Shown one piece after another: positions 3,049 to 45,674 of a DNA stretch of 64,000 nt (positions are counted from its first letter, which is position 1; each line of letters opens with the position of its first letter). The stretch is from an uncultured delta proteobacterium. GTDB lineage: Bacteria > Desulfobacterota > Binatia > Binatales > Binataceae. Both the position numbers and the translations under genes were made by a program. Under the pieces are notes generated by a model. The model worked only from the letters and a program-made list of their open reading frames with translations, was not told the DNA's origin and made no database searches. Location: contig CAWCDG010000004.1 in assembly GCA_963794325.1 (NCBI GenBank), positions 1,216,001-1,280,000 on the forward strand, read 5' to 3'.

Positions 3049-6015
3049 ATGCAACGCGCGGCCACGCAATCCCCGCAACTCGCGGTCCTCGGCCAACGCC
3101 TCAAGGACCGGCTGGGCCACTCGCGCCTCGCGCAGAATGCGATTACGGCCGTCAAGGATCGCGCGCCTGACGATCAGTTGGCGCTCGCCTTCCTGACCAA
3201 GCTCGCCGAGAATTCCACCGATGCGCTGAAAGACCTGCTGAGCGATCGCCGTGCAGCCAGCGATCTGATCTTCTGCCTCGGCTCATCGGAACTGGTCGCG
3301 ACCGAGCTGTCCCTGGCCGGCCCGGAGTGGGCGGAAATCTTTCTCGATGCGCGCGCCCAGACTATCGATGGGCTGGTCGCCGCGATGCGCACCGAACGGG
3401 CCACGATCGACGCGCCTGACCGTCAGGCGGCCGCCGCGATGCTCGGGACTTTCATGCGCCGGATGATGGTGCGGGTTGCGATCGCCGATCTGCTCGACCG
3501 TCTCACCCCGGCCGAGACGGCGATGGCGATGTCGGAGCTGGCCGACGAATGCATTCGCACCGCGCTCGACCTGGCGACTCGATTTCTTGGCAAACGCGCG
3601 CGCGAGGTCGGCCGATTCTGCATCCTTGCGATGGGCAAGCTCGGCGCGCGCGAGCTCAACCTCAGCTCGGACGTCGATTTGATTTATCTTCATGAGTCCA
3701 CGGGTTCGTCGGACAGTTCAGAAGCGGCGGCGCGCCTCGGTGAATGGTTTACTGAAATTCTGTCCGCGCGATGCTTTCGAATCGATATGCGGCTTCGGCC
3801 CGGCGGGCGCTCCGCGCCGCTGGTGACCCCGATCGACGGCGCAATCAACTATTACGAGAACCTCGGCGCGCCCTGGGAGCGTGCGGCGCTGCTGCGTGCG
3901 CGGCCGGTCGCCGGCGACCTCGAAATCGGACTGCAATTGCGGACCGAGCTGAATCACTTCGTGTTTCGCAGCTACCTGGATTTCGACACGCTGCGCCAGT
4001 TGCGATCGATGAAGCATCAGATCGAGGCCGAGCTGAAAACGCCCGCGATGATCGAGCGCAACATCAAGCTCGGCCGCGGCGGAATCCGCGAGCTCGAATT
4101 TATCGTGCAGGCGCTGACGCTGATTTATGGGGGACGCGACCCGCGCCTTCGCATCGAGCAGACCGTCGCCGCGCTCGAGAAGCTCGACGCGCTCGGCTAC
4201 TTGCCGTCGAAGCGCGCGCGCGAACTCGGCGATGCGTACCTGTTCCTGCGCGACGTCGAGCACAAGCTGCAAGTTGTCGCTGGCCTGCAGACCCACGTCC
4301 TGCCCGCCACGGAAGACGGGATGCGCGCGCTGGCGGCGCGGATGGGTTTCGGCAAGGGACCGGCGGCGCTGAAGAAATTCAGCGAGCTGCTGAAATCTCA
4401 TCGCGCCCTGGTCGAGCTGCAATTTCGCGAGACCCTGGCCGGTGGCGACGAATTGTCGACGCGCTCGGTCTCTTCTTCCGCGGAACTGGCGTGGAACTCG
4501 GCGCTTAATCCCGATTCCGCAACCCGCTATCTGCGCGAGCTCGACTTCGCGCGCGCCGACGAAAGCGCGCGCCATCTCGAGCTGCTTGCGCGCGGGCCTT
4601 CGCATGCACCGACCAGCCCGCGCCGTCGCGAGCTGCTGGAGCGCCTCGGCCCGATGCTGATGGACGAGATCGGCCGCCTGCCCGATCCCGACTTGGCGCT
4701 GATGAACCTGGCCGAGTTTATCGCGGCGATCGGCGCCCGCACGTCGTTCCTGGCTCTGCTCGAGCAGCATCCGGCGACGCGGCGAGTTCTGCTGCGGCTG
4801 TTTGCCTCGAGCGCATACTTGTCGACTATCTTCATCCGCCATCCCGACATGCTCGACACGCTGGTGCGCTCCGACCTTGCCGCGACCCGGCGCAGTCCGG
4901 CCGAATTGCGCGACGAGCTGGCGGGACTTATCGCGGCGAGCCCCGACTTCGAGAGCAAGCTGGACGCGCTGCGCGCGTTTCGGCATCAGGAGTTTTTGCG
5001 CATCGCAATCGCGGACCTCGCCGGCGATCTTGAATTGTTCGACGTCGAGCGCGAGCTCACCACGCTCGCCGAAACGGTGCTGGACGAGGCGATGGCGCTG
5101 GCGCGAATTCAGACCGGGTCGCGCTTCGCGATTCCCGCCACGATGCGGCTGTGCGCGATTGCGATGGGCCGTCTCGGCGCCAGCGAAATGTCATACAACT
5201 CCGACCTCGATCTGATCTTTGTTTACGACGACCGCGCGGAAGTGGCTGGCGGCAGCCGCGAAATCGCGTCGCGAATCACGCAGAAGCTGATCGCGATCCT
5301 CGAATCGCGCACCCGCGAAGGATACGCGTACAAACTCGACTTGCGCCTGCGGCCATCGGGCAACGCGGGCCCGCTGGTCACGTCGCTGGCCGGGTTCCGC
5401 GAGTATCATCGGCAAAGTTCCGCGGTCTGGGAACGGCAAGCGCTGGTGCGCGCGCGCGTGATAACCGGCGACTCTGAACTGGGGCGCGAAGTCGAGGCGG
5501 CGCGCCAGGAATTCGTGTACGGCCGCGGACTGACCCCGCCTGAGGTAGGCGAAATAGCCGCCATGCGTCATCGGATGGAGATGGAGATAGGCGCCGAGGA
5601 CAAGACGCGGCTAAATATCAAGCAGGGCCACGGCGGCCTGGTGGATGTCGAGTTCCTGGTACAGATGATGGCGCTCAGCCATGGTCATCGGCATCCGGAA
5701 TTGCGGGTGCGCGATACGATGGGCCTGCTCGAAGCGCTCGACGGCCTCCATCTACTGACCGCCGCCGACGCGTCCATCCTCGAAGACGACTACCGCTTCC
5801 TGTCGCAGTTGGAGAATCGCCTGCGAATCGAGAGCGACCAGCCCTCGTGGGCGGTGCCAACATCCGTAATTGGCCTGCGCCCACTGGCGCGCCGGATGGG
5901 TTTCGAAGGCGCCGACGGCGCATCGCGACTGCTCGCCGAATTAGCACAACGCCGCAATCGCATCCGCGCAATCTTCGACCGCTACTTCGCGGCTACTCGG
6001 CCCTTGTCATCCTGA
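3049..6015 (+). CDS. glnE: Bifunctional glutamine synthetase adenylyltransferase/deadenylase
   Basis: Two NT domains: MGKLGARELNLSSDVDL and MGRLGASEMSYNSDLDL, DxRLRP, WER.AL. Confidence 0.95.
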   Translation: MQRAATQSPQLAVLGQRLKDRLGHSRLAQNAITAVKDRAPDDQLALAFLTKLAENSTDALKDLLSDRRAASDLIFCLGSSELVATELSLAGPEWAEIFLDARAQTIDGLVAAMRTERATIDAPDRQAAAAMLGTFMRRMMVRVAIADLLDRLTPAETAMAMSELADECIRTALDLATRFLGKRAREVGRFCILAMGKLGARELNLSSDVDLIYLHESTGSSDSSEAAARLGEWFTEILSARCFRIDMRLRPGGRSAPLVTPIDGAINYYENLGAPWERAALLRARPVAGDLEIGLQLRTELNHFVFRSYLDFDTLRQLRSMKHQIEAELKTPAMIERNIKLGRGGIRELEFIVQALTLIYGGRDPRLRIEQTVAALEKLDALGYLPSKRARELGDAYLFLRDVEHKLQVVAGLQTHVLPATEDGMRALAARMGFGKGPAALKKFSELLKSHRALVELQFRETLAGGDELSTRSVSSSAELAWNSALNPDSATRYLRELDFARADESARHLELLARGPSHAPTSPRRRELLERLGPMLMDEIGRLPDPDLALMNLAEFIAAIGARTSFLALLEQHPATRRVLLRLFASSAYLSTIFIRHPDMLDTLVRSDLAATRRSPAELRDELAGLIAASPDFESKLDALRAFRHQEFLRIAIADLAGDLELFDVERELTTLAETVLDEAMALARIQTGSRFAIPATMRLCAIAMGRLGASEMSYNSDLDLIFVYDDRAEVAGGSREIASRITQKLIAILESRTREGYAYKLDLRLRPSGNAGPLVTSLAGFREYHRQSSAVWERQALVRARVITGDSELGREVEAARQEFVYGRGLTPPEVGEIAAMRHRMEMEIGAEDKTRLNIKQGHGGLVDVEFLVQMMALSHGHRHPELRVRDTMGLLEALDGLHLLTAADASILEDDYRFLSQLENRLRIESDQPSWAVPTSVIGLRPLARRMGFEGADGASRLLAELAQRRNRIRAIFDRYFAATRPLSS

Positions 6016-6050
6016 CGGAGCGAGCAACGCGAGCGGCAGGAAGGATCTCG
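6004..6050 (+). repeat. REP-like element (GTCATCCTGA...GAAGGATCT family)
   Basis: Resembles the GTCATTCAGAGCGAAGCGAAGAATC repeats at 32160-32196 and 40751. Confidence 0.4.
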
Positions 6051-6097
6051 GACAGCGGGGCGCAAGCGCCGCCGGTTCCGGTTCTGCGTTGCTGCAA

Positions 6098-8197
6098 CTA
6101 CTCAAAATCCAGCTTCACCCCCGCCAGCACGTTGATTGTCGGCGCCTTGAATCCGAAGGCCTGCGAATAGTTACGGTCCATCAGGTTGTTCACTCGCGCG
6201 AACACCTCCTCATTGCTCACGTGGCTCAGCGGGACTCCCACCGTGTATGACACCACCGCGTTGACCAGGTTGTATGCGGAGTGATTCGCGACCGGCGGAA
6301 CTCCGCTCACCGTGAGGTCGTCGCGATCGCCGACGAAGATGTAGTTCACGTTGGCGGTGATTTTATCGTGAGGCAGAAAACTCCCGCTCCGCACGTATTC
6401 CAGCAGGGCTGACGCGGTGTGCTTCGCCACCCGCAGCGGACGGGGTGGGGTCAAAAACGCTTTTGTGAAGTTGAGCGGGGAATCGGCGTGCGTCTCGTCG
6501 AGCACGGTCACGTTGCCGCTGAGCGTCAGTCCCTTGAAGAGCGTGACGCTCGGCACGATCTCGACGCCTTGCGTGTCCACGCGCGAAGCATTGCCCGCTT
6601 CCGATCCAAATTCACAGGTCGGGCCAACCTTGCACGGCACCGTGACAATCAGGTTCTTCACGCGCCGCGAAAAAAAGGTCGCAGTTATCGAGGCTCGCTC
6701 GCCGAAGTTGGTGGTGAATCCGCCGTCCCACTCGCTCGAAATCTCCGGCTTCAAATCGGGATTGCCGAAACCCGGGAAGAATAGCTCGTTGAAGGCCGGC
6801 GCGCGAAAGCCTTCGGTATAGCTGCCGCGCAAGGTGGTAGAGATTTTTGTGATCGGAATCGCGACCGACCACGCGGGGCTGACCTCCTTGCCGAACTCGC
6901 TGTTGCCATCGACGCGAAATCCTCCCGTCACCAGAACGTGGCCCTGGAGAAAACTGCCCTCTTGCTCGAGGTAGCCCGCGTATTCCTGGCGGCGCGCGCT
7001 GAACAGGCTTATCGACGTTAACAGCGGCGGAGGCGGCGTGAAGTTCGCGAACGTGAAGATGCCATCCGAGCGGACCCATCGATCTTTGAAATCGAATCCG
7101 GCGAGCGTGCGAAAGCCCTCTAACCGGGGCCAGGTGAACACCGTCTCGATCAGCCCGCCGCGCGTCTCGTCGGGGATGCGATCTTCCTCGCTGCCCGCGA
7201 AGCCCAGATAAGGCGTCGAGGTCGCGCGTAAATCCTGCCGCACGAAATACGCGTTCGCGCGCACCAGTATGTTTTCGCCGAAGTGATGCTCGACTTCGCC
7301 CTTGAACAACATGAACTCGTTGCGTTGGTGCGCGGTCGGATCCAGCAGTGATCCGGAGAACTGGTTCAAATTCGGCAGGCTCACGTTCGATGCGATGTAG
7401 CGCGCGAAGCCGCGCAGGACAGTGTCGTCGCCAAGGTGATAGTCGAGCCGCCCGTTGAGCGCGAGATTGTCGGAGTTGTCGTTGACCGGACGAAACCCCT
7501 CAGTCGAAAAGTACGACACCGCGCCCGAGTAATGAAGATTTCCGTCGGCGCCGCTGACGGTTCCAACTTGATTGCTGGTCGCGCGATTGCCGCCCGCTGA
7601 CAGCAGGCTCGCCGTCGGCGGACCATCGCCCTCCTGGGACAGCACGTTGACGACGCCGCCGATCGCCTGCGAGCCGTACAGCGAGCCGCCCGCGCCGCGC
7701 AAAATCTCGACGCGATCGAGATTGTCTGTAGTCAGGTTCGCGAGGTCGAAGCTGCCGGTCGCGCCCGCGTTGACCTCGACCCCGTCGATCAGCACCAGCG
7801 TCTGCGACGGCGTAGCGCCGCGAATCGACACGTCGGTGACCGAGCCGGGCGAACCGCTCTGCGTGACCTGCACGCCGGGCACCTGGCGCAGCACGTCCGC
7901 GATGCGATCGATCTTCTGCTCCTGGATTTGCGGATCTTCGACGACCGTGATCGTCGTGCCGATCTCGCCGATCGGTTGCGGGATTCGCGTCGCGGTGACG
8001 ACCACCGGATTCAGCTTCTGCGCCTCTTCTTTTTTGGCGGGAGGCGACGTCTGAGTGGCCTTCTTCTTCTGTGGCGAAGCTTTCTGAGTTTGTGTTTGCG
8101 CTGGCGACGCGGCGGCGGCTGGCGTTTGAGCCAGTGCGATGGGCGCATAAGGCGCCAACGCAAAGACTGTCGACAGGATCAAAATAGGAAACCGCAT
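6098..8197 (-). CDS. btuB: TonB-dependent cobalamin receptor (BtuB-like)
   Basis: VVVTATR TonB-box region, plug motifs (LIDGV, RVEILRG..SLYGSQAIGGVVN), downstream of a B12 riboswitch; GGAGGGAG RBS before ATG 8197. Confidence 0.85.
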   Translation of the reverse strand: MRFPILILSTVFALAPYAPIALAQTPAAAASPAQTQTQKASPQKKKATQTSPPAKKEEAQKLNPVVVTATRIPQPIGEIGTTITVVEDPQIQEQKIDRIADVLRQVPGVQVTQSGSPGSVTDVSIRGATPSQTLVLIDGVEVNAGATGSFDLANLTTDNLDRVEILRGAGGSLYGSQAIGGVVNVLSQEGDGPPTASLLSAGGNRATSNQVGTVSGADGNLHYSGAVSYFSTEGFRPVNDNSDNLALNGRLDYHLGDDTVLRGFARYIASNVSLPNLNQFSGSLLDPTAHQRNEFMLFKGEVEHHFGENILVRANAYFVRQDLRATSTPYLGFAGSEEDRIPDETRGGLIETVFTWPRLEGFRTLAGFDFKDRWVRSDGIFTFANFTPPPPLLTSISLFSARRQEYAGYLEQEGSFLQGHVLVTGGFRVDGNSEFGKEVSPAWSVAIPITKISTTLRGSYTEGFRAPAFNELFFPGFGNPDLKPEISSEWDGGFTTNFGERASITATFFSRRVKNLIVTVPCKVGPTCEFGSEAGNASRVDTQGVEIVPSVTLFKGLTLSGNVTVLDETHADSPLNFTKAFLTPPRPLRVAKHTASALLEYVRSGSFLPHDKITANVNYIFVGDRDDLTVSGVPPVANHSAYNLVNAVVSYTVGVPLSHVSNEEVFARVNNLMDRNYSQAFGFKAPTINVLAGVKLDFE

Positions 8198-32005: not shown

Positions 32006-32430
32006 AGGAACCTAACCCCTAACCCCTTCCCGCGCGGGAAGGGGGACCGGATGGAGAACGAAAGCTGTGCATGCGGAGGCGGAATCTTGAATCGCGCGCG
32101 AAAAATGCGCGCTGGACAAGGTCCCTCTCCTTAAATCCTCTCCCGACGGGAGAGGGGAAGAAGGATCCGGGATTCTTCGCTTCGCTCTGAATGACACAAG
32201 GATAGGAAGCAGAGGGTAAGAACAACCGTAGGCGGAATCTTGAATCGCGCGCGCAGCGCGCGCTGTGTAAGGACCCTCACCTTTGATCCTCTCCCTAACA
32301 GGGAGAGGGGAAGAAAGAGTGGCGGACGCGTCGGGGAACCTAACCCCTAACCCCTTCCCGAGCGGGAAGGGGAACCGGATTAGGGGGAGTAACCTTTTCC
32401 CAAGTGGGAAGGGGGACCGGATGGAGGACA
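32006..32430. repeat. Composite cluster of palindromic repeats
   Basis: 2x AACCTAACCCCTAACCCCTTCCC..GGGAAGGGG, 2x AGGCGGAATCTTGAATCGCGCGCG..CCTCTCCC..GGGAGAGGGGAAGAA, 1x REP-like (32160-32196). Confidence 0.85.
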
Positions 32431-39628: not shown

Positions 39629-40627
39629 ATGATTAAACGAATACTCACTGGGGACCGTCCAACCTCGCCGTTGCATCTCGGCCATTACGTAGGATCCCTG
39701 CAAAACAGGGTACGCTTGCAGGAAGAATACGATACCTACGTACTAATAGCCGACGTTCAGGCGCTGACCGACAACTTCGAGCATCCCGAGAAACTCGAAG
39801 CGAATATCTTCGAGGTCGCGCTCGACTACCTGGCGGTCGGTATCGATCCGGAAAAAACGAAGTTCGTCGTGCAGTCGATGGTCCCGGAGCTGACCGAGTT
39901 GACGATTTATTTTATGAACCTCGTCACGACCGCGACGCTCGAGCGCAATCCTACGCTGAAGGACGAAATCAAGCAGAAGAACTTCAGCAAAAATTTACCG
40001 GTTGGATTTTACACATATCCGATTTCGCAGGCCTCGGACATCACGATTTTCAAGGCTCACCTGGTGCCGGTGGGCGAAGATCAACTGCCGATGATCGAGC
40101 AGGCGCGCGAGATCGTGCGGCGCTTCAATCGTCTGTACGACAAAGTGCTTATCGAGCCGAAGGCGCTGCTTGGCGAAATGGCGCGGCTGCCGGGCACCGA
40201 CGGCGGCGCGAAGATGGGTAAGTCGCTCGGCAATTGCATTTACCTTGGCGATCCGCCCGAGGTGGTGCGCAAGCGCGTGATGTCGATGTACACCGATCCG
40301 ACGCGATTGCATCCGACGGACCCGGGCCATGTCGAAGGCAATCCGGTTTTCACGTACCACGACGTGTTCAATCCGGATAAGGCTGAAGTCGAAGATCTGA
40401 AAGAGCGCTATCGCAAGGGCACGGTCGGCGACGTCGAGGTCAAAGAGAAGCTGTTCAAGGCTCTTAACGCTTTTCTGGAACCGATTCGCGAGCGCCGCGG
40501 GGAATTCGCATCGAAGCCGGAGCGGGTGCGAGAGGTCATCGTCGAGGGCACGCGCAAGGGACGCGCGGTGGCGCAGGAGACGATGGCGGAAGTCCGCGCG
40601 GCGATGAAGATCAGTTACAAGTTTTGA
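39629..40627 (+). CDS. trpS: Tryptophanyl-tRNA synthetase
   Basis: TGDRPT..LHLGH, YP.SQA.DI, VPVGEDQ, KMGKS. Confidence 0.97.
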
Positions 40628-40776
40628 GGGAAGAGGAAATCACTTTATTTAATGTGAAACCCGCGGTGGGTTTCACGCTTCCTTCGGCAGGGCTAAGCCC
40701 TGCACTTTAGTACCAATCGCAAAATGGTGCGGACGCCATTTTGCTCCGTGTGTCATTTAGAGCGAAGCGAAGAATC

Positions 40777-40853
40777 CGGCAGTTTATACTTTATGTAACT
40801 TCGGGATCGCTCTTGTAGGTTCGAGGTTAGGTTGCGTAAAGTATATACTCGCG
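40777..40853 (+). repeat. Left MITE-like unit (own ~25-bp TIRs)
   Basis: CGGCAGTTTATACTTTATGTAACTT...AGGTTGCGTAAAGTATATACTCGCG. Confidence 0.8.
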
Positions 40854-40911
40854 AACGAAATCATTAAGGCTCCTGCCTGCTTGGTGGCACCGCGCCCTAG
40901 CGGAACGGACA

Positions 40912-41571
40912 TTACAGCGTTGCGTACTGACGTGGTTCGCTCGATCTTCGGGACTGATAGCGCCAGATCCATGCATCGAAGTCGCGGCGATTCAGCCCCA
41001 GTAAATCTGCCGCCCAAGACACTGCTGCTTGAATGTAATCATACTCGAGGATCCCCACCCCGGCATCTCGCGTAAACGTCCTTATATGTCTATCTACCGC
41101 AATACGATCAATGCCCACTAAGCAGCACATATAGTCGTAGGTCTTCGGCCCGACGCCTGATAGGCTCAGAAGCTGGTCCTTGGACCGCCTGTGCTTAAGC
41201 CACTGGCGAAGGTCGTTGGTGTCTTCCACGGAGTTTGCGCCGAGGAGAGAGGCGAGTCGCGTGAACCGTGAGACCTTTGTCGGGTGCTTCCATAGTAAAA
41301 AATCAGACACTAATCCCCTCTCGATTATCGAATTCACCCCCGAAAGCCTCGCCGCTTGTGGGTAATTTGTCTGTATGCGGGCGATCCGCGGTCTAATCAC
41401 CGTGCGATAATTTAGGCCCGCCTGTAGAACAGCGTCGGCCAACACGGCACCTAAGTGGCTTGCAGTTGGTCGCGGCGGAGTCGGTTTCACAACAATGCCT
41501 AAGCGCTCAGCGTGAGCAGCGACCTTACGGGCGGATGCGAGTACTTCCAGAGGGGCAGCTGACGGTGTCAT
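40912..41571 (-). CDS. HhH-GPD DNA glycosylase/lyase-like protein
   Basis: LLSLSGVGPKT HhH motif with Lys, AVDRH catalytic Asp. Confidence 0.75.
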   Translation of the reverse strand: MTPSAAPLEVLASARKVAAHAERLGIVVKPTPPRPTASHLGAVLADAVLQAGLNYRTVIRPRIARIQTNYPQAARLSGVNSIIERGLVSDFLLWKHPTKVSRFTRLASLLGANSVEDTNDLRQWLKHRRSKDQLLSLSGVGPKTYDYMCCLVGIDRIAVDRHIRTFTRDAGVGILEYDYIQAAVSWAADLLGLNRRDFDAWIWRYQSRRSSEPRQYATL

Positions 41572-42197
41572 ACAGACCGTCTGGTCATGTCAATCGCCAT
41601 GAGGCGTTCTACGCAGTTGGGACAGGCCCCGCAAGGCGTATCGCTCAGCAGTTGACATGAATAGGTTGATCCAATTGGGACCCGTAGGCGTTCGGCCTCC
41701 CTCACCACCTGCGCTTTTGACCAATTGCGGAACGGAATCTGGAACTTGACTGGTCCGACATCGGCAGCCAAGCTGTCGAGCTGGTTCAGAAATGTCGCCG
41801 AACAATCAATCTCTTTCGCGTGGTTACTATTTATGAAGCCACTGTAGACCTCGGTCAGGCCCCGCGTTTGGGCGCAGGAGGCGCCAGCCGAAAAGAACAG
41901 TAGGGTCCGGTATGGAACGTAAAGGTCCTCGTCCTCAACACGCTCACTCCAAAGGTCCGGCTCCCGAATAAGCCTTGAGCGAGAGCCTCTAAATATGCCG
42001 GAAATGTCAATCCTAGTGGGTGATGACAAGCCGCGATCTTTGGGAAGCACCTTCCGAACAGTGGCCCATTCCTTCTCAACGCAGTGTTGACCATAGTCGA
42101 AGAATACGGGTACGACCCCGATCTCACGCTCGCGAAGCCAATAGGCGACTGTGGTCGAATCCAGCCCGCCGGAGCATAGAAGTAGTACCTCAGGCAT
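41568..42197 (-). CDS. QueC-like PP-loop ATPase (7-cyano-7-deazaguanine synthase family)
   Basis: SGGLDS, DYGQ, YVP.R, SC....PCGACPNC Zn site. Confidence 0.9.
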   Translation of the reverse strand: MPEVLLLCSGGLDSTTVAYWLREREIGVVPVFFDYGQHCVEKEWATVRKVLPKDRGLSSPTRIDISGIFRGSRSRLIREPDLWSERVEDEDLYVPYRTLLFFSAGASCAQTRGLTEVYSGFINSNHAKEIDCSATFLNQLDSLAADVGPVKFQIPFRNWSKAQVVREAERLRVPIGSTYSCQLLSDTPCGACPNCVERLMAIDMTRRSV

Positions 42198-43525
42198 TAG
42201 TTCCCTCTCCTTTCGCCAAGCAGATAGAAAACGGCATTGAGGCAGGAGTCCAGGTCGCGAGAATAATGGGCGGAACCCGCCATGACCATGGTGTTAGCAT
42301 TCTCGCCCATAGGGTCGAAAACCACCACCGGGATTCTGGACTGGATGGCCAGGCCGATCTCAACCAGCGTTCCCGGATCACGCGCGCTCGGAACAGCAAA
42401 GACGAGCTGACAATGTATTAGAAGATCGATGTCTGCCTGGTAGGTTCCCTGCAGCGTAGCAGCGTCAGAGCTAGGTGGCAGCTCGCCGTTCTCTACTATT
42501 GGCCGACGGACGCGGAAATTGTGGTATTGCAGTGAAGCCAATACCCGGTCGATGGCCGCTCGCTCGGCTCCAGCGAAATCTGGCGCAGCGAGGTAGATTG
42601 ACAGCTCCTGCCGTCGCTCCCAAGGCAGGGACGCTCCCCAAAGACCTCTCATCTCCTCGAGAGAAAGCTTAAGGTCCCGTTGCACATACGTCTTGAAGAG
42701 ATCGGGGTAGGTTGTCTGCGAATAAGCGGAGCTCGCGTAAGTCGCTCGCCAGCCGGCCTCAGCAATTCCTTTGCCGAGATGGACTACATAGGCCGCTGCA
42801 AATACGTCACCAACGCCTACCGAGTTCTCGGTTGTTCCGAGCTGCGCCGGCAGTGCCTCAACTTCGCCGCTTGAGACAGATACTAACCTGGAGCCGCCTC
42901 GATTTTCTTTCAGAATCACGGTTGAGGGATTGCTGCTCGAAAACGCCCTTACTACACCCATGATCCCGCCCCCTTGGATCGATCTAAATAGTTCGGAAGA
43001 CGTGGAGATAAGAACAGTCTCCACCAATTGCGGCAGGCCAGCGATTTCGACCGGATCCCTGATGTCGTATGCCGCGTCCACATGAACGCGAGCGTTTTGA
43101 GGTAAGAGCGTACTGGCCTCTTTCAAGCTGTAAGTGCCGGGAAATAGCAGGATTTCACTGCCAGCTGTGCTCTCTACCCGCGTTCTCGAAAGTCGGACGG
43201 TCTTCTCGTCCCGCAGCAAGGTTTCGTACCCTTGGTCTGCTACCTCCGTGGGATCAAAGATTACCGTTAGATTGGGGGCTCCCTTGACGATGCCGAGGAT
43301 GTGGAAATCGACGCATCCGAGCGCCTTAAAGTATTTGTTCGCTGAGTCGACCAAGTACTCTGGCAGGATCAGGGCGGCCCTGAAGGGGGCACCAAGAGCC
43401 CAGAACCCACGGGCCGCGTGTGCAACCCCGCCCAATCTTAGCTTGTTTTCCGTCCCGGACGCCGTAACAGTGAAGTCTACAAAGAGTTCGCCGACCAGGA
43501 GCGGGGCGCTTTCCGAGGCGGTCAT
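42197..43525 (-). CDS. PfkB/ribokinase-like domain fused to nucleoside 2-deoxyribosyltransferase domain
   Basis: LKENRGGS, VGVGDVF (PfkB); IYLAAPDF..D.....C..DPGT.VEIG.A..N.M (NDT). Confidence 0.85.
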   Translation of the reverse strand: MTASESAPLLVGELFVDFTVTASGTENKLRLGGVAHAARGFWALGAPFRAALILPEYLVDSANKYFKALGCVDFHILGIVKGAPNLTVIFDPTEVADQGYETLLRDEKTVRLSRTRVESTAGSEILLFPGTYSLKEASTLLPQNARVHVDAAYDIRDPVEIAGLPQLVETVLISTSSELFRSIQGGGIMGVVRAFSSSNPSTVILKENRGGSRLVSVSSGEVEALPAQLGTTENSVGVGDVFAAAYVVHLGKGIAEAGWRATYASSAYSQTTYPDLFKTYVQRDLKLSLEEMRGLWGASLPWERRQELSIYLAAPDFAGAERAAIDRVLASLQYHNFRVRRPIVENGELPPSSDAATLQGTYQADIDLLIHCQLVFAVPSARDPGTLVEIGLAIQSRIPVVVFDPMGENANTMVMAGSAHYSRDLDSCLNAVFYLLGERRGN

Positions 43526-43914
43526 GGGCGATCTGGCACAAAATCAGCCCTCACGGACGCAAGTGGCGGGCCTGCCGTCCTAGCCGTCACACGACCTGGG
43601 TAAGTCCACCCATCTTGTAAGCAGGAAGCTAGATAGTTAAATGCCGTAGGGATGTTTCCTACGCTCTCACCGTTGACGGTCTCAGCTACCAGACGCTTCC
43701 TCAGCCGGATCCGGAGTTGCTCTCCGACTGGAGGCGGTGCACCGTGCGCCGCGTAGTAGTCAGAGTGTTCAATGTCCTCGAGGGACGTGCTCAAAGCCCG
43801 CCCACAACGATCCGATGGCGGGCTGCCGCCGCCCCCCTTGGGTCCGCCACCGCTCTTGTCCGTTTTAGAAGAGCCCGGATAGTCACTGATTCTGCCAGGA
43901 CCGCTGCTACCCAT
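43522..43914 (-). CDS. Small hypothetical protein with MGSSG N-terminus, first gene of the QueC operon
   Basis: GGGGG RBS-like run, ATGA overlap with the next gene, Gly-rich N-terminus then a beta-rich domain. Confidence 0.75.
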   Translation of the reverse strand: MGSSGPGRISDYPGSSKTDKSGGGPKGGGGSPPSDRCGRALSTSLEDIEHSDYYAAHGAPPPVGEQLRIRLRKRLVAETVNGESVGNIPTAFNYLASCLQDGWTYPGRVTARTAGPPLASVRADFVPDRP

Positions 43915-44048
43915 TGAAGTTCCCCCTCTCTAGCTATCCGTTTGCTAACGCTTCCCACCGGTCGCAGAACTCCGAAGGAGCGTAAGGTAAAGACAATATC
44001 AACCCCCGAGCTACACTAGTCCGTTCGGCGCGTCTCGAACAATCAAAT

Positions 44049-44126
44049 CGGGAGCATATACCTTGAGCAACCTAACCTCGAACCAATAAGTCCCGATCCC
44101 GAAGTTGCGTAAAGCATATACTCCCC
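44049..44126 (-). repeat. Right MITE-like unit (inverted copy of 40777-40853)
   Basis: Reverse complement GGGGAGTATATGCTTTACGCAACTTCGGGATCG..GGTTCGAGGTTAGGTTGC..TATATGCTCCCG. Confidence 0.8.
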
Positions 44127-44200
44127 GAAGAATCCCGGATCCTTCTTTGCGTCTCCGGCCGACGCGCGTCTGCGCGCGGCGGGTGAGAGATCAAATTTCG

Positions 44201-45674
44201 CTAGTAGGACTTCGCGAAGATACGCGCGCTCGGTGGCGGGTTCGCCGCAGGCCAGGCATTTGCCGGCGACGCCGTCGTTGGTGAGCGGGATCGCGCGGCA
44301 AGTCGCCTTGGTTTCTTCGCGAATTTTCGTCTCGCACGCTGGATTTCCGCACCAGTAGATGTCGGCGAATCCGCCGCCGCCCTCGCCTTCCATATGCTTA
44401 CGAAAGACCGCGTAGTCGTCGAACTTTCGTGTGTTCGCGACCATCGCGACCTTCGCCTGCGCGTAGAGATTTTTTTGAATCTCGGCGAGCAGCGCGACGA
44501 CGGTCTCCGCGATCGTTGCGAGCGACGCCTTGGTTTTCGATTCCGGTCCCGACTTGTCGCGCCGCGCGAGCACCGCTTCACCTGACGCGACATCGCGCGG
44601 TCCGATCTCGATTCGCACCGGGACGCCGCGCATCTCCCAGTCGTTGAACTTGAAGCCCGGCGTCATGCCCTCGCGCTCGTCGATGCGCGCGCGTATGTTC
44701 GCCTTCATCAGAGCTTCCAACGCGGCACGCGCCGCCGCCAGCACGGTCGCGCCTTCCTCGGGTTTGCGGAAGATCGGCACGATGACCGCCTGCGTTGAGG
44801 CGACGGTCGGCGGTAGGCGCAGTCCCTGGTCGTCGCCGTGCGCCATTACGATTGCGCCGAGCAGGCGGGTCGATACGCCCCAACTCGTCTGCCACACGAA
44901 TTGCATCTGATTCTGATCGTCGAGGTAGCGGATCTCGAACGGCTTCGCGAAATTCTGGCCGAGAAAATGCGAAGTGCCGCATTGCAGCGCGCGCCCGTCG
45001 CCCATCAGCCCTTCAATTGAGTACGTCTCGACGGCACCAGGGAATCGTTCGGCAGCGCTTTTGCGTCCGACGATCAGCGGAATCGCGAGAAAGTCCTCGA
45101 CGAATTGACGGTACACTTCGAGCATCCCGAGCGTTTCGCTTTGCGCTTCCTCGGCCGTCGCGTGCGCGGTATGGCCTTCCTGCCAGAGGAACTCGGTGGT
45201 GCGCAGGAACATGCGGGTGCGCATTTCCCATCGGACGACGTTGCACCATTGATTGACCATCATCGGTAAGTCGCGATGCGATCGAATCCATTGCGCGAAC
45301 ATGTGATTGATGATCGTCTCGGAGGTCGGGCGCACGATTAGCGGCTCTTCGAGCTCCTTGCCGCCGCCGTGGGTGACGACCGCCAGTTCGGGCGCGAAGC
45401 CCTCGACGTGTTGCGCTTCCTTTTCCAGGAAGCTTTGCGGGATGAACAGCGGGAAGTAGGCGTTGCGCGCGCCGGTCTTCTTGATGCGGCGGTCGAGCTC
45501 GTCGCGCAGCGCCTCCCAAATCGCAAAACCGTCGGGGCGAAACACGATGCATCCGCGCACCGGCGAGTAGTCTGCCAGCTCCGCGCGCAGGCAGATGTCG
45601 TTGTACCACGCGGCGAAATCCTCGCTGCGCGGCGTTACCTTCTTTTCGTTCTGCTTATTTGGTTTGTCAGCCAT
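44201..45674 (-). CDS. proS: Prolyl-tRNA synthetase (archaeal/eukaryote type), 1-nt frameshift near 44221
   Basis: HVEGFAPE, RPTSE, FLRTTEFLWQEGH, QTSWG.STR; the normal FAKSY* end lies in another frame ending at 44201. Confidence 0.95.

What the first reader, a model, noticed from the sequence alone, without database searches (positions are those of the whole stretch)
40912..43914. Candidate undescribed deazaguanine-based defence operon: MGSSG protein + PfkB-NDT + QueC + HhH glycosylase
Seen: four translationally coupled genes (ATGA, TAATG and ATGA overlaps) sit between trpS and proS, inside a mobile element. They encode a 130-aa protein starting MGSSG, a PfkB kinase (GVGD) fused to a nucleoside 2-deoxyribosyltransferase (GT.VEIG), a QueC-like PP-loop/Zn enzyme, and an HhH-GPD glycosylase/lyase. 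No queD/E/F or tgt is present, so this is not a queuosine operon. Established: QueC-like proteins occur in the QatABCD and type IV CBASS anti-phage systems, the latter with a TGT and an N-glycosylase. As I recall, they attach a deazaguanine to the N-terminal Gly of a partner protein. Inference: the Gly-start small protein is the QueC target, the glycosylase or NDT frees a modified base (possibly from phage DNA), and PfkB re-phosphorylates a nucleoside. There is no CD-NTase, KAP ATPase or TatD, so it matches neither known system.
Basis: partly seen in the sequence, partly recalled or inferred. Interest (0 to 1): 0.9.

Follow-up and report, generated by a model that had tools for sequence, protein, structure and literature searches.

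The report
Mobile four-gene QueC-like cassette
A horizontally acquired four-gene cassette, kept in the same order in many unrelated bacteria, probably attaches a modified guanine base to the tip of a small partner protein and likely acts against phages, which would extend a recently discovered kind of bacterial immunity.

Summary
Four overlapping minus-strand genes lie at 40912-43914. A is a 130-aa protein starting MGSSG. B is a PfkB-like kinase fused to a nucleoside 2-deoxyribosyltransferase (NDT). C is QueC-like. D is an HhH-GPD glycosylase.

- **Acquired:** they sit in a 3.57-kb insertion (40628-44202), bounded by ~81-nt inverted repeats. It is missing from the same trpS/proS site in 5 of 5 congeners. 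B was not found in 40 relatives.
- **Conserved:** the order A-B-C-D recurs in 80 of 80 fetched genomes from several phyla. It also recurs in 23 IMG/VR contigs and on plasmids. Flanks are unrelated and often carry known defence or mobile genes.
- **A:** its start is M-G-S-[ST]-G in all 73 copies found. It has a disordered tail and a HIRAN-like domain (Z 8.5-10.7).
- **C:** its best solved relative is Cap9. A complex model supports A-C binding (0.85; best control 0.00).
- **Not a known system:** it has no CD-NTase, TGT, KAP ATPase or TatD.

My best reading is a third deazaguanylation-type module. It is a new variant and is untested. Caveats: a sister subfamily starts M-E-S in the same cassette, and no experiment exists. 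A distant sister cassette fits the published "Cluster 4", which was read as purine salvage.

The parts
43522..43914 (-). Gene A: 130-aa protein. It has the N-terminal motif MGSSG..SDY, a disordered Gly/Ser-rich tail and a HIRAN-like beta domain.
   Evidence: ORF. No family in Pfam, NCBIfam or PADLOC. Homologue found in 73 of 80 loci. Invariant M1 G2 D11 Y12 in a 46-sequence alignment.
43813..43914 (-). A residues 1-34: flexible N-terminal tail, the proposed acceptor of the base.
   Evidence: pLDDT 44-55 over residues 1-30. The start is M-G-S-[ST]-G in 73 of 73 genome loci. The 21 viral loci whose start was readable show the same.
43531..43809 (-). A residues 36-128: HIRAN-like domain.
   Evidence: pLDDT 95-98. 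VIA-align: 3k2y Z 10.7 (rmsd 2.3, 89 aligned), HLTF HIRAN 4xzg Z 9.0, Rad5 6l8o Z 8.5, and the next row Z 5.2. Foldseek top hits are HLTF HIRAN, E 3.2e-3, prob 1.0.
42197..43525 (-). Gene B: 442-aa fusion of a PfkB-like kinase and a nucleoside 2-deoxyribosyltransferase.
   Evidence: Homologue found in 79 of 80 loci.
42641..43525 (-). B residues ~1-295: PfkB-like kinase domain. The invariant NSVGVGD motif (residues 234-240) lies at 42806-42826.
   Evidence: Pfam PfkB E 0.0033, below the cut-off. Ribokinase 6ilr E 0.0024. Atlas named clusters are PfkB, score 0.92-0.94. Invariant columns.
42200..42613 (-). B residues ~305-442: NDT domain. The invariant D383-P-G-T-x-x-E389-x-G391 lies at 42353-42379.
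   Evidence: Pfam PF05014 E 7.8e-13. The profile aligns to solved NDTs (6evs E 1.7e-8, 8rh3 and others), with E389 on the Glu of their D.GT..E.G motif.
41568..42197 (-). Gene C: 209-aa QueC-family, Cap9-like ATP-dependent ligase. The P-loop SGGLDS lies at 42156-42173 and the Zn Cys motif C181..C195 at 41613-41657.
   Evidence: Pfam QueC E 1.6e-30. TIGR00364 scores 93.5 bits against a cut-off of 150.3. PADLOC QueC model E 1.5e-27. Best PDB hit is Cap9 9nto_B, E 2e-14. Alignment.
40912..41571 (-). Gene D: 219-aa HhH-GPD-superfamily glycosylase. The HhH motif with invariant K143 and D160 lies at 41086-41190.
   Evidence: Invariant G139 G141 K143 T144 D160 R161 H162. PDB profile hits to MagIII, Ogg, EndoIII and Ogg2. 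Foldseek hits are all HhH-GPD glycosylases, TM 0.5-0.68.
40628..44202 (.). 3.57-kb segment absent from the trpS/proS site of congeners (the insertion).
   Evidence: In 5 of 5 congeners, query bases 1-2024 and 5600-7896 lie 0-20 bp apart. GC is 0.55-0.57 here against 0.60-0.63 in the flanks.
40775..40854 (.). Left arm of the terminal inverted repeat.
   Evidence: Pairs I1 and I2, 83-84% complementary. blastn gives 81 nt at 80%. Only these two copies exist in the genome.
44048..44128 (.). Right arm of the terminal inverted repeat.

Best explanation
This is a self-contained, horizontally mobile four-gene module. It belongs to the same functional class as type IV CBASS Cap9 and QatBC, that is protein deazaguanylation, but has different partner proteins.

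Proposed mechanism:
1. C is a Cap9-like ATP-dependent ligase. It docks on A and joins a 7-deazaguanine carboxylate to the free amino group of A's Gly2 after Met removal. The base is most likely host-made 7-carboxy-7-deazaguanine.
2. A carries this base on a flexible ~34-residue tail attached to a HIRAN-like domain. That fold binds DNA in its solved relatives.
3. B acts on the still-free N9 of the tethered base, or on the matching free nucleoside. Its NDT domain would exchange a base on a deoxyribose, and its kinase domain would phosphorylate the product.
4. D is an HhH-GPD glycosylase with the Lys/Asp pair of glycosylase/lyases. It either removes such bases from DNA or reverses the conjugate, as has been proposed for Cap11.

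The biological role is most likely anti-phage defence.

What is shown here: the gene anatomy, the conservation, the acquisition by insertion, the folds and the catalytic motifs. Supported by a model only: A-C binding. Inferred: the adduct, the substrates of B and D, and the defence role.
For: **Unit and mobility**
- Of 80 loci from other species, tblastn found A in 73, B in 79, C in 80 and D in 80. They are always in the order A-B-C-D on one strand.
- An all-against-all clustering of flank ORFs found no fifth conserved gene. The next most common family occurs in 14 of 81 loci.
- B was not found in 24 same-genus or 16 same-class genomes.
- The site is empty in 5 of 5 congeners.
- The cassette is bracketed by ~81-nt inverted repeats.
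- It also occurs on plasmids: 12 records, 7 of them full length.
- It occurs in 23 IMG/VR loci in the same order, beside portal, tape-measure and endolysin genes.

**C acts on A**
- A starts M-G-S-[ST]-G in 73 of 73 genome loci, with the start codon directly before the Gly.
- Of the best 150 family representatives, 110 start MG. Another 11 carry M-G-[ST] internally after a probably miscalled start.
- The tail is disordered.
- The substrates of Cap9 and QatC begin MGGS and MGTS on unstructured N-termini. A G2D change abolishes defence in both (PMC13279940, passages).
- C's best solved relative is Cap9, at 56.7 bits against 45.9 and 41.3 for QueC.
- C shares the Cap9-type spacings YxQ(x)5E, PF(x)4K and C(x)7CxxCxxC (against PMC13329287 section 7).
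- Complex model: ipSAE 0.85 in 3 of 3 runs, best of 3 controls 0.00. The runs agree in at least 94% of contacts and the partner's pLDDT is at least 84. This mark was reached by 58 of 80 solved complexes and 2 of 110 mismatched pairs.

**B works with C**
- B and C are fused into one 658-aa protein on a Bacillus mycoides plasmid, downstream of an A-like gene starting MGSTGTG.
- B's catalytic motifs are invariant.

**Deazaguanine link**
- The host has queD, a queE-like gene and tgt.
- A distant sister cassette on a Roseivivax plasmid holds an OGG-like glycosylase, a small Gly-rich-start protein, a PfkB-NDT fusion and a QueC-like protein. It sits beside a VUT-family gene annotated as queuosine salvage.

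**Defence context**
- Among the two nearest ORFs upstream (127 scanned): Septu PtuA 7 and PtuB 6, phage integrase 4, GmrSD 2, Mrr 2.
- Among the two nearest ORFs downstream (127 scanned): dGTPase 6, mad3 3, type IIG RM 3, a DRT reverse transcriptase 2, type I S subunit 2.
Against: - There is no experiment of any kind.
- Start of A. About 14 of the best 150 A-family representatives start M-E-[ST], two start M-D and one M-C. One M-E-S copy sits in a complete A-B-C-D cassette (L121). A free N-terminal Gly is therefore not universal, and a G2D change kills the known systems.
- Complex model. Its confident contacts are A 5-9, 11-15, 46-50, 72-74, 87-90, 96 and 115-119 with C 82-88 and 168-203. Gly2 to Ser4 and C's P-loop are not among them. 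It supports docking, not entry of the tip into the active site. C is Cap9-like and a Cap9 complex has been solved, so part of the score may be memory.
- CDG pocket. C lacks the aromatic residue of the YPDC motif (it has E-[IL]-D-C). That residue is needed for QueC activity (PMC13329287 section 6 passage). The substrate may therefore not be CDG.
- Defence context. In the window itself the neighbours are housekeeping genes. The defence-neighbour counts have no background control.
- D is not matched by any PADLOC model.
- The only published reading of a related pairing is purine salvage.
Confidence: 0.55

Rival explanations
1. Sensor variant. D is a Dag-like glycosylase that excises 7-deazaguanine bases from modified phage DNA. 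The freed base is then ligated by C onto A, which switches on B or A as the effector.
For: - Standalone HhH-superfamily glycosylases (Dag1, Dag2 and others) defend against phages with 7-deazaguanine DNA. Dag1 has a catalytic Lys and Asp (bioRxiv 10.1101/2025.10.29.685425, passages).
- D has invariant K143 and D160 and an HhH-GPD fold.
Against: - D is missing from the Bacillus form of the cassette, which keeps A and the B-C fusion. D therefore looks accessory.
- The host makes CDG itself, so a freed base would not be a clean signal.
- No comparison of D with Dag sequences could be made.
Confidence: 0.15
2. A module that serves the mobile element: DNA modification, anti-restriction or repair. 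A base or a protein-base conjugate is put into, or removed from, the element's own DNA. D or B would act as a transglycosylase and A as the DNA-binding carrier.
For: - The cassette rides on plasmids and in 23 IMG/VR contigs beside phage structural genes.
- All four proteins have nucleic-acid or nucleotide folds.
- 7-deazaguanine DNA modification is a known anti-restriction strategy (PMC6884629, abstract seen in the listing).
Against: - B was found in 0 of 50,697 isolated phage records.
- There is no DpdA/TGT-type transglycosylase in the cassette.
- Neighbours such as Septu, dGTPase and RM systems are typical of defence islands.
- Prophages commonly carry defence genes as cargo (my own knowledge).
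Confidence: 0.15
3. A metabolic pathway, the published reading for 'Cluster 4'. C amidates a small molecule and B salvages purine or deazapurine nucleosides. A and D would be incidental.
For: - PMC13329287 section 8 (read) describes a QueC-like cluster with PfkB-NDT neighbours in about 89% of neighbourhoods and calls it purine salvage.
- A VUT-family 'queuosine salvage' gene lies beside the sister cassette.
- B is annotated as a nucleoside 2-deoxyribosyltransferase in public records.
Against: - It does not explain the strictly co-conserved A, with its invariant N-terminal motif, or the A-C model.
- It does not explain D.
- It does not explain the patchy distribution (0 of 40 relatives), the insertion or the carriage on plasmids and prophages.
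- Our C does not carry the motif printed for Cluster 4.
Confidence: 0.1

Closest known systems
Type IV CBASS accessory proteins Cap9, Cap10 and Cap11 (bioRxiv 10.1101/2025.04.06.647259; abstract and passages read)
   Same: - A small Cap9-like QueC-family enzyme of about 190-210 aa is the best solved relative of C.
- The partner protein has a Gly right after the start Met.
- An HhH/OGG-type glycosylase accompanies the system, and it can be absent (Cap11 in about one third of operons; D absent in the Bacillus form).
- A base-exchange-type enzyme sits next to the ligase.
   Different: - There is no CD-NTase, no effector and no TGT-family Cap10.
- The partner is a 130-aa HIRAN-like protein.
- The base-exchange enzyme is an NDT fused to a PfkB-like kinase.
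- D is not matched by any PADLOC model.
QatABCD, core QatB-QatC complex (PMC13279940, abstract and passages read; PMC13329287 section 7)
   Same: - A QueC-family protein is paired with a small protein of no Pfam family.
- That small protein has a conserved M-G-[TS]-S start on a long unstructured tail.
- It is a four-gene operon.
   Different: - QatC is about 400 aa, has N- and C-terminal extensions and a remodelled active site. C is 209 aa and keeps the Cap9/QueC-like motifs.
- QatB is described as helical, whereas A is a beta-rich HIRAN-like domain.
- There is no KAP-type ATPase (QatA) and no TatD nuclease (QatD).
'Cluster 4' of the PF06508 similarity network (Libby et al., Biochem J 2026, PMC13329287, section 8 read)
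   Same: - A QueC-like protein about 10 residues shorter than QueC.
- Found mostly in Proteobacteria.
- Encoded next to a PF00294-PF05014 (PfkB-NDT) fusion.
   Different: - The printed motif CH(x)5CxxCxGCxK is not in our C, which has CQ(x)6CxxCxxCxE.
- That motif is found letter for letter in the QueC-like gene of a distant sister cassette on Roseivivax plasmid pTHAF30_b. That protein is only 26% identical to C.
- In the sections and passages I read, the paper mentions neither the small protein nor the glycosylase, and it proposes purine salvage.
Dag glycosylases (bioRxiv 10.1101/2025.10.29.685425, passages read)
   Same: They are HhH-superfamily glycosylases with a Lys/Asp active site, used in defence and linked to 7-deazaguanine.
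   Different: The Dag proteins tested there act as single genes. D is always the last gene of a four-gene operon. No sequence comparison was possible.

Membership tests
Type IV CBASS | Cap9-type QueC-family ligase | tested here: met
   The best PDB profile hit is Cap9 9nto_B (E 2e-14, 56.7 bits), above QueC 2pg3 and 3bl5. The PADLOC model named QueC matches at 1.5e-27. C has the Cap9-type motif spacings.
Type IV CBASS | CD-NTase as the modified partner, plus an effector | tested here: not met
   None of the four proteins matches a CD-NTase or effector model in Pfam or PADLOC. No further gene is conserved in 81 loci.
Type IV CBASS | Cap10, a TGT-family protein | tested here: not met
   The only PF01702 match in the genome is a canonical tgt on another contig. 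None lies in the cassette.
QatABCD | QatC: a QueC-like core with N- and C-terminal extensions (~400 aa) and a remodelled active site | tested here: not met
   C is 209 aa and keeps the YxQ, R, DC and PF(x)4K motifs. No Qat model was among its PADLOC hits.
QatABCD | QatA (KAP-type ATPase, PF07693) and QatD (TatD, PF01026) | tested here: not met
   Neither is in the cassette, and neither is among the recurrent flank families (only the top 25 of each list were shown).
QatABCD | QatB-like partner: M-G-T-S start on a long unstructured tail | tested here: inconclusive
   A has an M-G-S-[ST] start and a disordered tail of ~34 residues. Its folded domain is HIRAN-like, whereas QatB is described as helical. 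No sequence comparison with QatB was made.
Housekeeping QueC (preQ0 synthase, TIGR00364) | Score above the equivalog cut-off, and the motifs YxQxHxxE, VPxRN and YPDC | tested here: not met
   C scores 93.5 bits against a cut-off of 150.3. Its motifs read YGQHCVEKE, VPYRT and E-[IL]-D-C.
PF06508 'Cluster 4' (Libby et al. 2026) | C-terminal motif CH(x)5CxxCxGCxK | tested here: not met
   C has CQ(x)6CxxCxxCxE. The motif is present in the sister cassette, as CHTGNLACGQCRGCVK.
PF06508 'Cluster 4' (Libby et al. 2026) | A PF00294-PF05014 fusion in the same operon | tested here: met
   B is present in 79 of 80 loci, directly upstream of C.
Nucleoside 2-deoxyribosyltransferase (PF05014) | Score above the Pfam cut-off, and the catalytic Glu in D.GT..E.G | tested here: met
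   49 bits against a cut-off of 28.8. The invariant D383-P-G-T-x-x-E389-x-G aligns to solved NDTs. That this Glu is the nucleophile is my recollection.
PfkB kinases (PF00294) | Score above the Pfam cut-off, and the GxGD anion-hole/catalytic Asp motif | tested here: inconclusive
   17.3 bits, below the cut-off of 25.8. The motif NSVGVGD is invariant. Ribokinase 6ilr matches at E 0.0024. Atlas named clusters are PfkB at 0.92-0.94.
HhH-GPD DNA glycosylases | HhH motif followed by a catalytic Asp, with a Lys for lyase activity, and the fold | tested here: met
   G-x-G-P-K143-T and V-D160-R-H are invariant. Profile hits go to MagIII, Ogg, EndoIII and Ogg2. All listed Foldseek rows are HhH-GPD glycosylases. 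Activity was not tested.
HIRAN domain | The fold, and a sequence-profile match | tested here: inconclusive
   The fold is met: Z 10.7, 9.0 and 8.5 for three HIRAN structures, with the next row at 5.2, and Foldseek prob 1.0. No Pfam family matches at E <= 0.1. DNA binding was not tested.

The most novel reading that the evidence does not exclude
The cassette makes a protein-tethered nucleotide. C puts a 7-deazaguanine on the N-terminus of A. The NDT domain of B then installs a deoxyribose on the free N9 of that base, and the kinase domain phosphorylates it. A's HIRAN-like domain carries the tethered deoxynucleotide to the 3' ends of replicating phage DNA. There it blocks or caps synthesis. D removes or proofreads such adducts. 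This would be a third deazaguanylation immune system and the first with a worked-out downstream use of the N9 position, a use the Cap9 authors only proposed as possible.
Probability: 0.12. Interest if true: 0.95.

Novelty: new variant of a known kind. Interest (0 to 1): 0.78.

Why it matters
Protein deazaguanylation was described only in 2025-2026, for two systems (type IV CBASS and QatABCD). In both, what happens after the base is attached is still open.

This cassette pairs a Cap9-like ligase with three enzymes or domains whose chemistry is well understood: base exchange on deoxyribose, nucleoside phosphorylation and N-glycosidic bond cleavage in DNA. It adds a DNA-binding-type domain on the modified protein. 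It therefore makes the question of what the tethered base is for directly testable.

It would also correct a published 'purine salvage' label on a related family. It would add a compact (3 kb), widely spread module to the list of candidate defence systems. A relative of C was found in 161 species genomes. B has at least 1060 protein clusters at 90% identity.

Tried and rejected
- **Rfam:** a scan of 40500-44400 at E <= 1 gave no match, so no preQ1 riboswitch or other known RNA.
- **Promoter and terminator scan, 40600-44300:** no sigma-70-like site. There were 2 terminator-like sites inside genes, fewer than the shuffles gave. This is not informative.
- **Sequencing runs:** no RNA holder is listed. 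The six DNA holders have small shares (0.05-0.16), so I laid no reads. This says nothing about expression.
- **Shared ends:** the window's inverted repeat is not found beside the cassette in the other 80 loci. Of 71 loci tested for flanking repeats within 700 bp, only 5 had any: direct repeats of 224-264 bp in L031, L034 and L045, and short ones in L009 and L018. There is no common mobilisation signature.
- **Target-site duplication:** a possible 4-bp AGAA duplication lies at the ends of the window's repeat. It is too short to count.
- **Atlas search** of B residues 1-300 only repeated 'PfkB'.
- **Ruled out:** housekeeping QueC, Qat or CBASS membership, and a queuosine operon (see the membership rows).
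- **Closed:** the supplementary files of PMC13329287 (network membership, neighbourhood table, Figure S5). They may show whether our family was in its Cluster 4.
- **Closed:** The search of earlier findings.

Full report
**What is there**

Four ORFs lie head to tail on the minus strand:
- A, 43522-43914, 130 aa
- B, 42197-43525, 442 aa
- C, 41568-42197, 209 aa
- D, 40912-41571, 219 aa

A purine-rich stretch (GAGAGGGGGA) ends about 6 nt before A's ATG.

Family searches gave the following:
- A has no family in Pfam, NCBIfam or PADLOC.
- B matches Pfam Nuc_deoxyrib_tr over residues 310-408 (E 7.8e-13). It matches PfkB only weakly over residues 191-268 (17.3 bits, below the cut-off).
- C matches Pfam QueC (E 1.6e-30). 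Against NCBI's QueC equivalog it scores 93.5 bits, where the cut-off is 150.3. It is the only one of the four that PADLOC recognises, through a model named QueC (E 1.5e-27).
- D has only an HHH motif and faint glycosylase hits.

The neighbours in the window are housekeeping genes. They are a RecN-like protein, NAD kinase, an AP endonuclease, TrpRS, ProRS, a SIMPL protein, a peroxiredoxin, a VIT-family protein and an ABC permease.

**It is an acquired insertion**

B was not found in 24 genomes of the same genus or in 16 of the same class. 29 of these 40 are at least 90% complete.

In 5 of 5 congeners examined, the DNA up to the trpS stop (window 40627) and the DNA from window 44203 onward (proS) lie 0-20 bp apart. 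Window 40628-44202 is therefore a 3.57-kb insertion. Its GC content is 0.55-0.57, against 0.60-0.63 in the flanks.

The cassette is bracketed by an imperfect inverted repeat of about 81 nt, at 40775-40854 and 44048-44128 (80-84% identity). These are the only two copies in the genome. No recombinase lies inside. The element resembles a passenger cassette between inverted repeats, but this signature is not shared by other loci.

The first 150 nt of the insertion (40628-40777) are a copy of a short repeat that occurs dozens of times in each congener.

The insertion removed the native end of proS. ProRS homology stops at residue 486 of the 543-codon ORF.

**It is a conserved unit**

I scanned one genome for each of 185,579 species with two peptide patterns from C. 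This gave 161 genomes with a relative, of which the best 80 loci were kept.

tblastn with the four window proteins found A in 73, B in 79, C in 80 and D in 80 of these 80 loci. They are always in the order A-B-C-D on one strand. Of the seven loci without A, five are cut by a contig end just upstream (L019, L026, L066, L070, L071). I did not resolve L010 or L012.

By my reading of the record titles, the hosts are:
- about 47 Alphaproteobacteria
- 11 Betaproteobacteria
- 13 Gammaproteobacteria
- 3 Acidobacteriota
- 2 delta-type or Desulfobacterota
- one each of Actinomycetes, Chthoniobacterales and Chlorobiota
- one unclassified proteobacterium

An all-against-all clustering of greedy ORF calls from 81 loci found no fifth conserved gene. 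The next family, an HD-domain dGTPase, occurs in 14 loci.

The cassette is also found elsewhere:
- On plasmids: 12 records, 7 with a full-length B.
- In 23 IMG/VR contigs: 21 hold all four genes and two end before D. Their flanks include portal, tape-measure, endolysin and anti-repressor genes.
- Not in isolated phages: none of 50,697 records matched.

**Context in relatives**

I scanned the two nearest ORFs on each side of the cassette.

| Side | ORFs scanned | PADLOC or Pfam families (members) |
|---|---|---|
| Upstream | 127 of 132 listed | Septu PtuA 7, PtuB 6, phage integrase 4, rve 3, GmrSD 2, Mrr 2, HipA 2 |
| Downstream | 127 of 141 listed | dGTPase 6, mad3 3, type IIG RM 3, a DRT reverse transcriptase 2, type I S subunit 2, resolvase 2 |

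I dropped near-duplicate loci (5 upstream ORFs, 14 downstream) to fit the size limit. Only the 25 commonest families per search are shown, and I ran no background control. The enrichment is therefore suggestive and not measured.

**The proteins**

*A.* In a 46-sequence alignment, M1, G2, D11 and Y12 are invariant and S3, G5 and G7 nearly so. A Gly/Ser-rich linker follows, and then a conserved ~90-residue domain. In all 73 genome loci the start codon sits directly before the Gly, and the sequence upstream is not conserved. The model is disordered up to about residue 34 and confident from there (pLDDT 95-98).

The folded domain matches HIRAN domains in two searches:
- VIA-align over 48,161 chains gives lp_0118 (Z 10.7), HLTF HIRAN (Z 9.0) and Rad5 (Z 8.5). 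The next row is Z 5.2.
- Foldseek's top rows are HLTF HIRAN bound to DNA.

That HIRAN binds 3'-OH DNA ends is my recollection.

*B.* The invariant residues include NSVGVGD in the kinase part. In the NDT part they include YLAAPDF, D365 and D383-P-G-T-x-x-E389-x-G. The last motif aligns with the D.GT..E.G motif of solved NDTs.

*C.* It keeps SGGLDS, YGQ(x)5E, R97, D131-C132, PF(x)4K and C(x)7CxxCxxC. These spacings are the ones the literature gives for Cap9, not for QueC. Its best solved relative is Cap9.

*D.* G-x-G-P-K143-T and V-D160-R-H are invariant. The model (pLDDT 93.7) matches only HhH-GPD glycosylases, namely MagIII, Ogg, Ogg2, EndoIII, MutY and OGG1.

**Links between the parts**

A complex model of C (with ATP and Zn riding along) and A residues 2-130 scored ipSAE 0.85 in all three runs. 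The best of three controls scored 0.00. The runs agree in at least 94% of contacts and the partner's pLDDT is at least 84. This mark was reached by 58 of 80 solved complexes and 2 of 110 mismatched pairs. The tool notes that these counts hold only roughly here.

The confident contacts involve A's tail (5-9, 11-15) and its folded domain, and C's residues 82-88 and 168-203. Gly2 to Ser4 and C's P-loop are not among them. A Cap9 complex has been solved, so some of the score may reflect likeness.

On Bacillus mycoides plasmid p509, B and C are one 658-aa protein. An A-like gene starting MGSTGTGRFGDY and a NUDIX gene precede it. No D follows, and a Septu-like pair lies nearby. Two Bacillus cereus plasmids carry the same annotation under the match, but I did not inspect them.

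**A distant sister cassette**

Roseivivax plasmid pTHAF30_b encodes the following:
- an HTH regulator
- an OGG-like glycosylase
- an unannotated 123-aa protein starting MSGGGGGRDDY
- a PfkB-NDT fusion
- a QueC-like protein
- nearby, a VUT-family gene annotated as queuosine salvage

Each of my four profiles hits its counterpart there. The scores are 62.8 and 46.3 bits for B and C, and only 12.8 and 14.6 bits for A and D, in a five-protein search.

Its QueC-like protein carries exactly the motif printed for 'Cluster 4' in PMC13329287. Ours does not. The published cluster is therefore this sister family, or includes it. Whether it also includes ours I cannot tell without the supplements.

**What argues against the simple story**

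A profile search of 1.84 billion representatives found 320 A relatives at E <= 0.001. Of the best 150:
- 110 start MG
- 11 carry the M-G motif after a probably miscalled start
- about 14 start M-E-[ST]
- two start M-D and one starts M-C
- the rest are fragments

One M-E-S copy (L121) sits in a full A-B-C-D cassette with an intact-looking C. 26 of 27 metagenome loci fetched with M-E-S-type queries were of the M-G type.

Since G2D abolishes the known systems, the M-E-S branch is either modified differently or not modified at all. I have no explanation for it.

**Host supply**

The genome has queD, a queE-like gene (286.5 bits against a cut-off of 300) and tgt. CDG is therefore plausibly available.

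A second QueC-like gene lies on another contig. It also scores below the equivalog cut-off (79.7 bits).

**Literature**

I searched for:
- QueC, QatC and deazaguanine
- QueC-like, NDT and PfkB
- deazaguanylation with defence-system terms
- QueC with deoxyribosyltransferase
- deazaguanylation alone: 14 papers, 8 listed after merging copies
- HIRAN, QueC, 7-deazaguanine and anti-phage

Among the papers these searches listed, only PMC13329287 links a QueC-like gene in an operon with a PfkB-NDT fusion. None of the listed titles or abstracts describes this four-gene cassette, its small protein or a HIRAN link.

**Verdict**

The defence and deazaguanylation reading is the best supported one, but it rests on homology, conservation, context and one complex model. 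I rate it a new variant of a known kind.

Noticed in passing
window 40624-40777 (also a partial copy at 32149-32202): A short dispersed repeat of about 80-150 nt lies directly after the trpS stop. By eye it holds three hairpin-forming segments. It matches dozens of places (73-98% identity) in each of five congeneric genomes. It looks like a REP- or MITE-type element and forms the left edge of the insertion.
   Followed up: partly
window 44043-44202: The last 57 codons of the 543-codon proS ORF lie in the inserted DNA. ProRS homology with five congeners ends at residue 486, and the Pfam ProRS C-terminal domain ends at residue 485. The insertion replaced the native stop and gave ProRS a foreign tail.
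   Followed up: partly
G000 contig C7:33216-33815 (L002 1465-2133): A second, lone QueC-family gene (222 aa). It has LPGRN and C(x)8CxxCxxC, but FPDA in place of YPDC. It scores 79.7 bits against the TIGR00364 cut-off of 150.3. Neither QueC-like gene of this 85%-complete genome passes the equivalog cut-off, so it is unclear which one makes preQ0.
   Followed up: partly
L020, L021, L038, L051, L057, L069, L074, L078, L079 (just after D); also L012, L030, L037, L039, L063: An HD/HD_assoc dGTPase (PADLOC dGTPase, best E 1.3e-150) lies within 7 kb of the cassette in 14 of 81 loci. In nine it comes directly after D, on either strand. This could be defence-island clustering. It could also be a functional tie, since a dGTPase releases deoxyguanosine, a possible NDT substrate.
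   Followed up: partly
L121 3312-3707; proteins P0339, P0341, P0347, P0351 and others: A sister subfamily of A has invariant M-E-S at the start instead of M-G-S. It sits in the same four-gene cassette. This is unexplained.
   Followed up: partly
L096 5121-7974 (Bacillus mycoides plasmid p509): The Firmicute form of the cassette: a NUDIX gene, an A-like gene, and B fused to C as one 658-aa protein. There is no D.
   Followed up: partly
L148 1770-6428 (Roseivivax sp. plasmid pTHAF30_b): A distant sister cassette lies among type IV secretion genes. It holds an HTH regulator, an OGG-like glycosylase, an unannotated 123-aa protein starting MSGGGGG, a PfkB-NDT fusion, a QueC-like protein with the published Cluster 4 motif, and a VUT-family transporter gene.
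   Followed up: partly
L012 6459-8277; L007 5674-6783: These may be decayed copies. In L012 (Bradyrhizobium sacchari) A and B are not found, and a 181-aa fragment of the HD/dGTPase family (clustering) lies in front of C and D. In L007 the B reading frame stops after 368 codons.
   Followed up: no
L031, L034, L045: Direct repeats of 224-264 bp (86-96% identity) flank the cassette in two Halomonadaceae loci and one Stenotrophomonas locus. This is a different footprint from the window's inverted repeats.
   Followed up: no
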